A stretch of DNA of 64,000 nucleotides from Escherichia coli (GTDB lineage Bacteria > Pseudomonadota > Gammaproteobacteria > Enterobacterales > Enterobacteriaceae): the NCBI RefSeq assembly GCF_017348835.2, contig NZ_CP071375.1; one strand, given 5' to 3'. Both the position numbers and the translations under genes were made by a program. Numbering within the stretch: the first letter of the stretch is position 1; each line of letters opens with the position of its first letter. The notes beneath the pieces were generated by a model. It saw nothing but the letters and a program-made list of their open reading frames with translations. It was not told the DNA's origin and ran no database searches. Below, one piece after another: positions 23,655-24,555 of the stretch.

Positions 23655-23840
23655 GGCCCGTTACGGGGCGGCGACCTCGCGGTTTTTATCTGTTTATGAA
23701 AATTTTTCTGGAAAAAGCATGTCGGTACTTCTCGAACATAACTATTTGTTTTTAAATAGATACACAATAAAAAGAAACGACACGGTAATCATCTAAAATG
23801 GCGATTTATGACGCTTTCATGTCGTTTCTCAGTTTTGTTC
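23655..23840 (+). other. Lambda-like cos site, left copy, plus orientation: cosN (GGGCGGCGACCT at 23666..23677) followed by cosB-like R2 and R1 elements
   Basis: GTTACGGGGCGGCGACCTCGCGGTTTTT...TTTATGAAAATTTTT matches my recollection of the phage lambda cos region; R2-like AAAAGAAACGACACGG and R1-like TGTCGTTTCTCAGTTTTG sit at lambda-like spacing. Confidence 0.65.
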
Positions 23841-23856
23841 AATAATTGCGCGTCTG

Positions 23857-24369
23857 TTACTCGCCTTTCTTCTGTAGCAACTTTTCCGGTACGTTTCCGG
23901 TTGTTTCTTTCAAGTAATCAGCCAGTATCTGTGGGAGGTTGTCGGCAACTCTGGCACTGGCATTACAGGCTTTAACCACTTCCCTTTTAAGCCTATCCAG
24001 CATGGCGTGGGTAATCTGTGGGAAGCTCCTTTGCATAGTAAGCGGGAGGCTGTCCATGATTGATGAAATCTGACTCGCCAGCTTTGAAAGCGCGTACAGG
24101 CAAAACTCAGTATCAATCACGTCACCGCGATCGCGCTCGTTTTTAAGTTCCTGCGCCTCCGCCTGTGCTGTCAGTAATCTGATCCTGACTCGTAAGAGTT
24201 CATCATCATCAATATCGCCTTTGTCGTTTGTAAGCTGGCTAATTGCATTGTTAACCCTATTGTCTATCACGCTGGCAACATCGTAAAACGCCTCACGGCC
24301 TTTACGTTCAACGGGAGTCACTCCCCACTTGTCGAACGCTGTCGCACTTACACGGCAGCTTTTCGCCAT
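23857..24369 (-). CDS. Terminase small subunit, lambda Nu1 family
   Basis: 170-aa product aligns by eye with lambda Nu1 (RIRLLTAQAEAQELKNERDRGDVIDTEFCLYALSKLASQISSIMDSLPLTMQRSFP vs lambda RHRLTRAQADAQELKNARDSAEVVETAFCTFVLSRIAGEIASILDGLPLSVQRRFP); a cosN lies ~180 bp upstream. Confidence 0.75.
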   Translation of the reverse strand: MAKSCRVSATAFDKWGVTPVERKGREAFYDVASVIDNRVNNAISQLTNDKGDIDDDELLRVRIRLLTAQAEAQELKNERDRGDVIDTEFCLYALSKLASQISSIMDSLPLTMQRSFPQITHAMLDRLKREVVKACNASARVADNLPQILADYLKETTGNVPEKLLQKKGE

Positions 24370-24384
24370 GTTTTTTTGTTCATC

Positions 24385-24555
24385 AGGTGCGATTTCATTA
24401 ATACACCAACTTAATTACTGCTTCAGGTTGGTGTATTGTTTGCATCTTTCCCTTTTCATTCATAAAGATAGAGCAAACAACAAAACCACCACCACCCCCC
24501 TGAAAAGGCTCATAAATAGCGAAAAACCGCGAGGTCGCCGCCCCGTAACGGGTCC
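24385..24555 (-). other. Lambda-like cos site, right copy, minus orientation, directly upstream of terS (cosN = reverse complement of 24532..24543)
   Basis: Minus-strand sequence GTTACGGGGCGGCGACCTCGCGGTTTTTCGCTATTTATGA; 32 of 33 positions identical to the left copy but inverted; contains an 11-bp inverted repeat AATACACCAAC ... GTTGGTGTATT. Confidence 0.65.

What the first reader, a model, noticed from the sequence alone, without database searches (positions are those of the whole stretch)
23655..24555. Two lambda-like cos sites in inverted orientation bracketing the Nu1-like terS gene
cosN (GGGCGGCGACCT) with flanking lambda-like sequence occurs twice, once on each strand, ~870 bp apart, and the two sites point toward each other across terS. 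The right copy sits ~180 bp upstream of terS, the canonical cos-to-Nu1 spacing. The left copy retains lambda-like cosB R2/R1 elements but abuts the 3' end of terS. This could give the element one cos matched to its own TerS and one matched to the helper's Nu1, or mark a recombination scar or an invertible terS cassette.
Basis: partly seen in the sequence, partly recalled or inferred. Interest (0 to 1): 0.8.

Follow-up and report, generated by a model that had tools for sequence, protein, structure and literature searches.

The report
Two facing cos sites in a PICI
A small phage-parasitic island in E. coli carries two lambda-type DNA-packaging start sites that face each other across its own small-terminase gene; this pair is already published for a sister island, but comparison of genomes shows that one site is a real phage-type site and that the segment between the two sites has flipped repeatedly in nature.

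Summary
Exact cosN 12-mers lie at 23666-23677 (+) and 24532-24543 (-), inside a 72-nt inverted repeat. They bracket a Nu1-family terS gene (23857-24398, -).

The element is an 11.5-kb phage-inducible chromosomal island (PICI) inserted in tqsA. It is syntenic with the prototype EcCICFT073. The two sites are homologues of that island's published cos1 and cos2 (Fillol-Salom 2018, 2019). Here a full-length TerS replaces RppA. The core finding is therefore already known.

New from comparison:
- The left site (cos2) is a complete phage-type cos. Its R3, I1-like, R2 and R1 elements sit at exactly the lambda positions, and the boxes are of the phage 21/PhiR5_1 class.
- cos2 exists in at least three cosB alleles that vary independently of the island TerS. 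The EcCICFT073 allele is 93% identical to the cos of PhiR12 phages.
- The right site (cos1) has an N15-like box at the R3 position, and it always travels with the N15-like TerS.
- All 41 two-cos loci examined have the sites inverted. None has them in direct orientation.
- The cosN-to-cosN cassette occurs in both orientations in nature for four cassette types. One case is 751/751 identical as a reverse complement.

Best reading: two convergent packaging origins, one read by the island TerS and one by a helper TerS. Inversion is a consequence of the repeat. Function was not tested here.

The parts
22585..34085 (-). Whole island: an 11,492-bp EcCICFT073-family PICI inserted in tqsA, between att cores TGCTGTTAT
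   Evidence: RefSeq annotation of E. coli PE164 shows int, HTH regulator, Icd-like, RepA helicase, SSB, PerC, capsid, decoration protein and terS. The gene order matches EcCICFT073. The att cores were located.
23320..23601 (-). orf93, the conserved flank on the cos2 side (phrog_1561, function unknown)
   Evidence: Homologues flank the cassette in 50 surveyed loci (48 IMG/VR loci plus the window and EcCICFT073).
23635..23706 (.). Left arm of the 72-nt inverted repeat (cosQ2, cosN, I2-like)
23635..23645 (+). cosQ-like element of cos2 (CGGGTCCTTCC; lambda has CGGGTCCTTTCC)
   Evidence: Alignment to lambda; coordinates.
23666..23677 (+). cosN of cos2, the homologue of EcCICFT073 cos2
   Evidence: The outer arm GTCGTCGGGTCCTTCCTGGAATTATGGCCCGTTACG is the same as the published cos2.
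23678..23707 (+). I2-like segment of cos2
23717..23733 (+). R3-position box GCATGTCGGTACTTCTC (+52..68), phage 21/phi4 type
   Evidence: It is near-identical to the CFT073 prophage phi4 cos through R3 and I1.
23734..23762 (+). I1-like (IHF-site-like) A/T-rich segment
   Evidence: Alignments to lambda, phi4 and PhiR5_1. No binding test was done.
23769..23785 (+). R2-position box AAAAAGAAACGACACGG, inverted (+104..120)
   Evidence: (inverted repeat I3).
23816..23832 (+). R1-position box TTCATGTCGTTTCTCAG (+151..167)
23857..24398 (-). terS, Nu1/N15-gp1 family. Intact homologues are 180 aa. This copy has a 1-nt deletion in an A8 run (24366-24381), leaving a 170-aa ORF from the ATG at 24369
   Evidence: (PGAP: frameshifted).
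24474..24500 (-). R3-position box of cos1, GGGGGGTGGTGGTGGTTTTGTTGTTTG. It is N15-R3-like and is linked to terS in every locus that has a lambda-type cos1
   Evidence: Murialdo and Feiss 2022 proposed an N15-like single R3 for PICI cos.
24507..24531 (-). I2-like segment of cos1
24532..24543 (-). cosN of cos1, the homologue of EcCICFT073 cos1
24563..24575 (-). cosQ-like element of cos1 (ACGGGACCTTTCC)
24503..24574 (.). Right arm of the 72-nt inverted repeat
23666..24543 (.). 878-bp cosN-to-cosN cassette (cosB2, terS, cosB1), found inverted in other natural isolates
   Evidence: PM4-5 has 95.7% identity as a reverse complement with collinear flanks. Six genomes carry the inverted junction.
24605..25018 (-). 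orf137, the conserved flank on the cos1 side. It resembles the C-terminal (scaffold-like) part of head maturation proteases

Best explanation
The locus is the packaging cassette of an 11.5-kb EcCICFT073-family PICI. Its two cos sites are the homologues of the published cos1 and cos2.

cos1 (right, - strand) is the island's own packaging origin. It has lambda-type cosQ, cosN and I2, followed by an N15-like box at the R3 position. The island's N15/Nu1-family TerS is inferred to read that box and, through its conserved C-terminal half, to recruit the helper phage's large terminase. The helper nuclease would then cut cosN and package leftward through terS.

cos2 (left, + strand) is a complete phage-type cos, with R3, I1, R2 and R1 of the phage 21/PhiR5_1 class. 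It is inferred to be read directly by a helper's own small terminase and to drive packaging rightward.

The island therefore has two convergent origins with the same cohesive ends but different TerS specificity.

The inverted orientation is inferred to be the only stable way to carry two cos sites. Termination needs cosQ upstream of cosN in the direction of travel. Two direct copies would cross-terminate and would delete or duplicate terS at each packaging round.

A by-product of the inverted repeat is that the 878-bp segment between the two cosN sites flips. The cause is either recombination within the shared roughly 25-72 nt, or double terminase cutting followed by religation.

Shown here: the anatomy, the homology to cos1 and cos2, the phage-type nature and allelic variation of cosB2, the linkage of cosB1 with terS, and the natural inversions.

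Shown in the literature for the sister island: both sites are functional, and only cos1 responds to the island factor.

Inferred: which protein reads which site in this island, the reason for the orientation, and the mechanism of inversion.
For: Identity with cos1 and cos2:
- The gene order matches EcCICFT073.
- cosN is in the same inverted layout around rppA in CFT073.
- The outer arms are the same as the published cos1 and cos2 sequences.

Literature:
- Both EcCICFT073 cos sites support transfer. cos1 is required and responds to RppA. Deleting cos2 raises lambda-mediated transfer. Deleting both abolishes transfer.

cos2 is of phage type:
- The R boxes are at the lambda positions.
- The window allele is 82.9% identical over 150 nt to PhiR5_1 and near-identical to the CFT073 prophage phi4 (21-type) cos through R3 and I1.
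- The EcCICFT073 allele is 93.3% identical over 179 nt to the cos of PhiR12 phages, which lies just upstream of their Nu1 gene.

cosB2 is uncoupled from the island TerS:
- TerS islands carry either the P2a allele (10 loci) or the P2b allele (13 loci), with the same TerS N-terminal sequences.

cos1 is specific to the island TerS:
- Its cosB finds no phage match beyond I2.
- It is present next to terS in every TerS locus that has a lambda-type cosN.
- Its R3-position box resembles N15 R3.
- The TerS is closest to N15 gp1, at 46% identity.
- The TerS keeps the Nu1 C-terminal half, which Rpp proteins lack.

Orientation:
- 41 of 41 two-cos loci are inverted and none is direct.

Inversion:
-.

Size:
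- Four island units total 45.97 kb, which fits a lambda-size head.
Against: - No experiment here shows which protein binds which site, or that either site is cut in this island.
- The TerS-type islands tested in 2018 (IHE3034, 18098) were not transferred by their resident prophages, so no helper is known.
- In EcCICFT073, cos2 lowers rather than raises transfer by lambda and phi80. Its cosB does not match the resident helper phi4. A benefit of cos2 is therefore unproven.
- Nine surveyed TerS islands lack cos2 or have it half-deleted, so it is dispensable.
- Identical cosN and arms could be maintained by gene conversion between the repeats rather than by selection. L042 has the same outer-arm type on both sides.
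- The terS in this window is frameshifted.
- The argument about orientation rests on my knowledge of lambda termination, not on a test.
Confidence: 0.6

Rival explanations
1. cos2 is a non-functional relic of a past recombination with a lambdoid phage. It persists by hitch-hiking and is kept identical to cos1 in its core by gene conversion between the inverted arms. Inversions are neutral accidents.
For: - cos2 is absent in 6 surveyed TerS islands and half-deleted in 3 more, where the terS stop codon is fused to the outer half of cosN.
- Deleting cos2 in EcCICFT073 increases transfer by lambda.
- L084 and L085 show a truncated orf93 5' duplicate next to a divergent cos2, which looks like an insertion scar.
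- The arms have been exchanged in L042.
Against: - Each of three cosB2 alleles keeps three internally consistent R boxes at the lambda spacings. That pattern is the signature of working TerS binding sites.
- The EcCICFT073 allele is 93% identical to a live phage cos.
- EcCICFT073 cos2 drives plasmid transduction and residual island transfer.
- cosN is intact, with at most one mismatch, in all 41 two-cos loci.
Confidence: 0.2
2. The inverted cos pair is a programmed DNA switch. Flipping the cassette toggles expression of terS or rpp relative to the capsid-gene operon, and swaps which cosB is joined to which cosQ. The island would thereby alternate between using its own TerS and borrowing the helper's.
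For: - Both orientations are found for four cassette types: TerS/P2a, TerS/P2b, RppA and the geneless 536-bp cassette.
- One inverted RppA cassette is 100% identical to EcCICFT073's as a reverse complement, so that flip is recent.
- After a flip, the phage-type cos takes the place and direction of cos1.
Against: - No invertase gene lies next to the cassette. The only recombinase is the island integrase, about 9 kb away.
- The minority orientation is rare: 6 genomes against 487 for TerS-type islands.
- There is no evidence of mixed orientations within one strain.
- A terminator-like hairpin lies between orf137 and cos1, and no clear sigma-70 promoter was found in the cassette. Transcriptional coupling is therefore unknown in either orientation.
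Confidence: 0.12
3. One of the two copies is an assembly or annotation artefact.
For: The PE164 assembly has several frameshifted genes in this region: ynfF, ynfM, terS and the decoration gene. This suggests homopolymer errors.
Against: The same two-cos layout is present in 487 complete genomes, in CFT073 and in 39 IMG/VR contigs. It was also verified experimentally in the literature.
Confidence: 0.01

Closest known systems
EcCICFT073 cos1/cos2 with RppA (Fillol-Salom et al. 2018 ISME J; 2019 Mol Cell)
   Same: - The island backbone and gene order are the same.
- The outer arms of both cos sites are the same.
- The layout is the same: convergent sites around the packaging-specificity gene, between orf137 and orf93.
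   Different: - The gene between the sites is a full-length 180-aa TerS with a Nu1-like C-terminal half. In EcCICFT073 it is the 144-aa RppA, which must pair with the helper TerS.
- cosB1 is of the T1 type, not the Rpp type.
- cosB2 is the 21/PhiR5_1-like allele, not the PhiR12-like allele.
- The held papers do not mention the inverted orientation, the phage identity of cos2 or cassette inversion. Searches for 'inverted' found nothing.
Phage lambda and phage 21 cos (cosQ, cosN, I2, R3, I1, R2, R1)
   Same: - The left copy reproduces the full architecture at the same spacings.
- Its cosN is identical.
- Its R-box core CATGTCG is shared with the 21-type phage phi4 and with PhiR5_1.
   Different: - It is not followed by a co-oriented terS. 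It abuts the 3' end of a convergent terS.
- It is only 65% identical to lambda over 200 nt.
Phage N15 cos and gp1
   Same: - The island TerS is most similar to N15 gp1, at 46% identity.
- The cos1 box at +48..65 resembles N15 R3, GAGGTTGTTGTTTAATC.
- The idea that PICI cosB is N15-like, with a single R3, was proposed by Murialdo and Feiss in 2022.
   Different: - cosN is lambda-type (GGGCGGCGACCT), not N15-type (GGGCGGCGTCCG).
- The box sequence differs: GGTGGTGG against GGTTGTTG.
SaPI small terminase (SaPI1 and SaPIbov1 TerS)
   Same: The logic is the same. A satellite-encoded TerS pairs with the helper's TerL to redirect packaging to the satellite's own site.
   Different: The SaPI system uses headful (pac) packaging. 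There are no cohesive ends and no second, helper-type site in inverted orientation. This comparison rests on the literature summarised and on my own knowledge.
cos SaPIs (SaPIbov5; SaPIbov4 with two putative cos sites)
   Same: The satellite carries a helper-type cos, so the helper terminase packages it directly. SaPIbov4 is cited as also having two putative cos sites.
   Different: The lineage is Gram-positive and the cos is HNH-dependent. The orientation and role of the second site are not described in the held text.
Invertible phage segments (Mu G, P1 C, Salmonella hin)
   Same: A short DNA segment bounded by inverted repeats is found in both orientations.
   Different: Those systems have a dedicated serine invertase and an enhancer next to the segment. 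Here none is present, and the repeats are themselves terminase cut sites.

Membership tests
EcCICFT073-type Gram-negative cos PICI | Integrase at one end, an AlpA-type regulator and a primase/helicase replication module in a fixed order; about 10-15 kb; no tail or lysis genes | tested here: met
   The PE164 annotation is collinear with the CFT073 island and spans 11,492 bp between att cores.
EcCICFT073-type Gram-negative cos PICI | Lambda-type cosQ and cosN in two copies (cos1, cos2) flanking the packaging-specificity gene | tested here: met
EcCICFT073-type Gram-negative cos PICI | Induction by, and high-frequency transfer with, a helper phage | not testable with these tools
   TerS-type islands of IHE3034 and 18098 were not transferred in the 2018 study.
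Rpp (redirecting phage packaging) system | A short Rpp protein with a TerS-like DNA-binding domain but no TerL-binding C-terminus, which works as a heterodimer with the helper TerS | tested here: not met
   The gene here aligns with Nu1 to residue 180 and with phrog_57 over positions 8-193 of 199. RppA matches only the DNA-binding domain, positions 12-52. The two proteins fall into separate clusters.
Nu1-family small terminase | Sequence homology over the DNA-binding, oligomerisation and TerL-binding regions | tested here: met
   37% identity to Nu1 (E=1e-33). 46% identity to N15 gp1. phrog_57 E=1.7e-52. This copy is frameshifted near the 5' end.
Lambda-type cos site (left copy) | cosQ, cosN and I2, then R3, I1, R2 (inverted) and R1 at fixed spacing | tested here: met
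   Met at the sequence level. Cutting and binding were not tested.
Lambda-type cos site (right copy) | The same architecture | tested here: not met
   cosQ, cosN and I2 are present, but there is no lambda- or 21-type R3-I1-R2-R1. There is an N15-like box at the R3 position instead.
Recombinase-driven invertible segment (Gin/Hin/Cin type) | A dedicated invertase gene adjacent to the inverted repeats | tested here: not met
   No recombinase lies within the cassette or its neighbours. The only one is the island integrase.
Recombinase-driven invertible segment (Gin/Hin/Cin type) | Both orientations coexist within one clonal population | not testable with these tools
   Only differences between strains were seen.

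The most novel reading that the evidence does not exclude
The cosN-bounded cassette is a recombinase-free mobile and invertible module created by the packaging enzyme itself. If terminase cuts both convergent cosN sites, it releases a fragment whose two ends carry the same 12-nt overhang. Each end is complementary to both flanking ends. Ligation can therefore put the fragment back in either orientation, or into another co-resident island. This would explain the recurrent clean inversions. It would also explain the mix-and-match combinations of cosB1, gene and cosB2 seen among islands. It would let an island switch which packaging specificity faces its fixed packaging direction.
Probability: 0.2. 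Interest if true: 0.8.

Novelty: new variant of a known kind. Interest (0 to 1): 0.5.

Why it matters
The 2019 paper on EcCICFT073 explicitly left open why some PICIs carry two different cos sites. The comparison here turns that question into testable statements:
- cos2 is a genuine phage cos.
- cos2 comes in alleles that match different lambdoid lineages.
- cos2 varies independently of the island's own TerS or Rpp.
- The two sites are always convergent.
- The segment between them flips in nature.

If the dual-origin reading is right, these very common islands hedge between pirating the helper's large terminase with their own TerS and simply posing as helper DNA. Related sequence is present in about 2,000 of 5,426 complete E. 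coli genomes. That would widen their helper range and affect how virulence cargo spreads.

The TerS-type islands would also be the first cos-packaging counterpart of the SaPI strategy of a satellite-encoded TerS.

The inversion matters practically as well. It changes gene orientation in otherwise identical islands, which could mislead annotation or typing.

Tried and rejected
- Solved structures. Sequence searches of TerS, orf137 and orf93 against PDB chains gave only chance-level hits. The truncated ORF did not reach the Nu1 or RppC entries.
- NCBIfam. No family was found for TerS, orf93, orf137 or RppA.
- Promoter and terminator scan. There is no sigma-70-like promoter inside the cassette, and hits are no more frequent than in shuffles. 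Whether terS is transcribed on its own therefore stays open.
- Assembly artefact. Rejected.
- Similarity limited to cosN. Rejected.
- 'cos1's cosB is wholly private to PICIs.' Softened. BLAST finds no phage match beyond I2, but direct reading shows an N15-like box.
- 'cos2 matches the resident helper.' Not supported for CFT073. Its resident helper phi4 has a 21-type cosB, while EcCICFT073 cos2 is PhiR12-type. I could not examine the prophages of PE164 outside the window.
- Conservation of the R boxes against their spacers within each allele. Too little diversity in the sample to be informative.
- Crossover mapping, to tell terminase cut-and-religate from homologous recombination. The informative markers only bound the exchange to about -9..+23 around cosN, so the two cannot be separated. 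L042, with the same outer-arm type on both sides, suggests that at least some exchanges occur outside cosN.
- Literature. Searches for cos2 or inversion in PICIs after 2019 found nothing beyond the two Penades-laboratory papers and the 2022 Murialdo and Feiss review, which does not mention cos2.
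Full report
**What is in the sequence.**
The 12-mer GGGCGGCGACCT occurs exactly at 23666-23677 on the + strand and at 24532-24543 on the - strand. A third match, at 56547, has one mismatch and is at chance level. The chance expectation is 0.26 matches, and no shuffle reached three. The two exact copies sit inside a 72-nt inverted repeat that is 81% complementary, at 23635-23706 and 24503-24574.

Between them, on the - strand, lies an ORF at 23857-24369. It is 37% identical to lambda Nu1 over 153 residues, including the C-terminal half (E=1e-33). 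Its intact homologue matches the PHROG small-terminase family end to end.

**Similarity to phage cos goes well beyond cosN.**
The left copy aligns with 89 lambdoid phages from cosQ through cosN into cosB. The best match is PhiR5_1, at 82.9% over 150 nt (E=1e-32). Lambda matches at 75.4% over 125 nt.

Reading the left copy against lambda shows:
- a cosQ-like CGGGTCCTTCC;
- an I2-like stretch;
- boxes at +52..68, +104..120 (inverted) and +151..167, which are the lambda positions of R3, R2 and R1;
- an A/T-rich I1-like segment between R3 and R2.

The convergent terS stop codon starts at +192, and the Nu1 ATG in lambda is at +191. The left copy is thus a complete cos unit of about 190 bp, placed tail-to-tail against terS.

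The right copy matches phages only through cosQ, cosN and I2, about 82 nt. Its distance to terS is 146 nt to the start codon used by intact homologues.

**What the element is.**
The window comes from E. coli PE164. The RefSeq annotation shows an island inserted in tqsA. Its genes are a tyrosine integrase, an HTH regulator, an Icd-like gene, a RepA helicase, SSB, PerC, a lambda-E-like capsid gene, a D-like decoration gene, orf137, terS and orf93. It spans 11,492 bp between TGCTGTTAT att cores.

This is gene-for-gene the layout of EcCICFT073, the prototype Gram-negative phage-inducible chromosomal island. In CFT073 the gene between orf137 and orf93 is rppA (c1503). Exact cosN copies flank rppA in the same convergent arrangement.

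The supplement of the 2019 Mol Cell paper prints EcCICFT073 cos1 and cos2. Their outer arms are the same as those of the window's right and left copies. So right equals cos1 and left equals cos2.

**What is already known.**
Fillol-Salom et al. (2018, 2019) reported the following:
- EcCICFT073 carries two cos sites, and each one cloned on a plasmid allows transduction by lambda and phi80.
- Deleting cos1 lowers island transfer. Deleting cos2 raises it. Deleting both abolishes it.
- Only the cosB of cos1 responds to RppA.

TerS-encoding islands (IHE3034, 18098) were catalogued and marked, but no helper was found for them. One of the primers in that paper matches the window's cos2/terS junction.

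Murialdo and Feiss (2022) proposed that PICI cosB is N15-like, with a single R3. They do not discuss cos2. Searches found no later treatment of cos2 or of inversion.

**Survey of relatives.**
Using orf93 as an anchor, I fetched 80 IMG/VR loci. I analysed them together with the window and CFT073.

- Forty-one loci have two lambda-type cosN sites. In all 41 the sites are inverted, and in none are they direct.
- The inner sequence next to the orf137-side site defines the gene. T1 (GGGGGGTGGTGGTGGTTTTGTTG) accompanies terS in every TerS locus that has a lambda-type cos1. R1 (GGTGACACCACCACCAC) always accompanies rppA.
- The inner sequence at the other site varies independently of the gene.
  - TerS islands carry P2a (10 loci; the window's type, box core CATGTCG) or P2b (13 loci; box TCAGATCC(G/T)TTCT, which shares its 3' half with the lambda R boxes).
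  - RppA islands carry P2c (9 loci; box CATGTCCGGTT) or X1 (4 loci).
- Identical TerS N-terminal sequences occur with both P2a and P2b.
- Each P2 allele has its own box repeated three times at the lambda spacings. This is the pattern seen when lambda and 21 are compared.
- Nine TerS islands lack cos2. In six, terS abuts orf93 directly. In three, the terS stop codon is fused to the outer half of cosN.

**cos2 is a real phage cos.**
The EcCICFT073 allele (P2c) is 93.3% identical over 179 nt to the cos of phages PhiR12_1 to PhiR12_5. It covers cosQ, cosN and all three boxes, and in those phages it lies immediately upstream of Nu1 and A.

The window's allele (P2a) shares its boxes with PhiR5_1. 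It is near-identical through R3 and I1 to the 21-type cos of the CFT073 helper prophage phi4.

By contrast, cos1's cosB has no BLAST match in 50,697 phage records beyond I2. The island TerS is closest to N15 gp1, at 46% identity, with all phage hits below 60%. The N15 R3 segment GAGGTTGTTGTTTAATC resembles the T1 and X1 boxes at the same position.

**The cassette flips.**
The geneless 536-bp cassette is 99.1-99.6% identical as a reverse complement between L007/L008/L022 and L010/L028. Both flanks stay collinear.

I then built junction queries that join the orf137-side arm to the cos2 inner sequence.
- For the TerS cassette, six complete genomes contain this junction in one piece, against 487 with the canonical layout.
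  - In PM4-5, whose island is also in tqsA, the 878-bp cassette is 95.7% identical to the window's as a reverse complement and 49% identical forward. The flanks are collinear, and terS is annotated on the opposite strand to its neighbours.
  - Strain 2014C-4587 shows the same for a P2b cassette.
- For the RppA cassette, 15 genomes carry the inverted junction at full length.
  - In WP4-S17-ESBL-08 the 751-bp cassette is 751/751 identical to the reverse complement of EcCICFT073's. The right flank is 500/500 identical, and the protein accessions are the same.

Inversion of the cosN-bounded segment has therefore happened repeatedly and recently. The exchange points can only be bounded to about -9..+23 around cosN. 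L042, with the same outer-arm type on both sides, shows that some exchanges reach the cosQ spacer.

**How it most likely works.**
The identity of the two sites, their different cosB classes, the linkage pattern and the natural inversions are shown. The rest is inferred.

The island TerS is inferred to bind the N15-like box of cos1 and to bring in the helper's TerL through its Nu1-like C-terminal half, a region that Rpp proteins lack. Packaging would then run from cos1 through terS and around the concatemer. Four units make 45.97 kb, about 95% of the lambda genome length.

A helper whose own TerS recognises the cos2 boxes is inferred to start at cos2 and package in the opposite direction. The product would be a permuted molecule with the same cohesive ends.

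The convergent orientation is, in my reading, what makes two sites tolerable. In lambda, termination needs cosQ upstream of cosN in the direction of travel (established knowledge of the lambda system, recalled, not tested here). Co-oriented sites would cross-terminate and would delete or duplicate terS. This fits the count of 41 inverted against 0 direct.

The published rise in transfer when cos2 is deleted fits interference between two converging initiation complexes only 0.87 kb apart.

Inversion follows from the repeat. It could occur by RecA- or Red-mediated exchange, possibly stimulated by terminase-made ends. It could also occur by double cutting and religation, because the released fragment has the same overhang at both ends.

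**Limits.**
- Nothing here shows cutting, binding or transfer for this island.
- No helper is known for TerS-type islands.
- cos2 is dispensable in nature.
- cos2 does not match the resident helper in CFT073.
- Gene conversion could keep the repeat cores identical without selection.
- The terS of this window has a 1-nt deletion in an A8 run. Several other genes nearby are also frameshifted, so sequencing error is possible.

**Verdict.**
The core feature, however, is the published cos1/cos2 pair of the EcCICFT073 family, here in its TerS-bearing form.

Three points appear not to be in the held literature, and they make the open 'why two cos sites' question directly testable:
- the demonstration that cos2 is a phage-type cos that occurs in several alleles;
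- the link between the N15-like TerS and cosB1;
- the recurrent natural inversion of the cassette.

Noticed in passing
window 24366-24381 (- strand): terS has A7 where intact homologues have A8 (consensus GAACAAAAAAAACATGG). This shifts the first 10 codons out of frame. PGAP also flags ynfF, ynfM and the decoration gene nearby as frameshifted, so the cause may be homopolymer sequencing error rather than a real pseudogene.
   Followed up: partly
window 25253-25363: A 32-bp unit (CGCCAGCATCAGCGGGGTAAATTCCTGAATAA) is repeated in tandem about 3.5 times inside the D-like head decoration gene. The gene spans 400 nt here against 336 nt in CFT073 and is annotated as frameshifted.
   Followed up: no
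window 24605-26736 (- strand): The island encodes a lambda-E-like major capsid protein, a D-like decoration protein and orf137. orf137 resembles the C-terminal (scaffold-like) part of head maturation proteases (phrog_53, E=1.7e-10). The 2018 paper found no role for the capsid and decoration homologues in interference, so their function in a satellite packaged in full-size heads is unexplained.
   Followed up: partly
window 24576-24599 (- strand): A terminator-like hairpin, GGCCGGAGAAATCCGGC followed by T7, lies directly after orf137. Its T-run merges into cosQ1. The simple scan did not list it. It bears on whether terS is co-transcribed with the capsid genes.
   Followed up: no
L036, L037, L041 (about 60 nt upstream of orf93): In these loci the terS stop codon is fused directly to the outer half of cosN (…GGCGAGTAA|CCGCCGCCCCGTAACGG…). 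cosB2 and the inner part of cosN are precisely deleted.
   Followed up: partly
L084 2540-2560 and 3425-3470; L085: A more divergent TerS island has non-lambda cosN-like 12-mers that differ between its two sites: GGGCGGCAGACG at cos1 and GGGCGGGAGCAT at the inverted site. A truncated duplicate of the orf93 5' end lies right after terS. This hints that the cos2 segment was inserted at a terS-orf93 junction.
   Followed up: no
L011-L015, L017 and about 20 other IMG/VR loci, upstream of orf93: In 25 loci orf93 homologues directly follow a large-terminase-like gene, in the position of lambda W after A, and there is no lambda-type cosN nearby. orf93 may therefore be a conserved packaging or head-completion gene shared with capsid-forming islands or phages.
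   Followed up: no
L019, L042, L047, L052 (site next to orf93): Some RppA islands carry, in place of a phage-type cos2, a second N15-like cos (X1, boxes GGTTGTTGTAT). It is followed by a degenerate gene start. It looks like the remnant of a second island-type cos-plus-gene module in convergent orientation.
   Followed up: partly
window 22668-22690 and 33927-33949: A 23-nt direct repeat, TGACTACACCAGTGACTACACCG, lies just inside both ends of the island. Each copy is itself an internal tandem of TGACTACACC. These may be integrase arm-type binding sites.
   Followed up: no
L089 1196-1233 (phage PhiR5_1): The cosQ-to-cosN spacer of PhiR5_1 (CCTTTCCGGCATATGGACCCGTTACG) is identical to the outer arm of the island's cos1. 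Its cosB boxes resemble those of the island's cos2. Both island arms may therefore derive from phages of this group.
   Followed up: no
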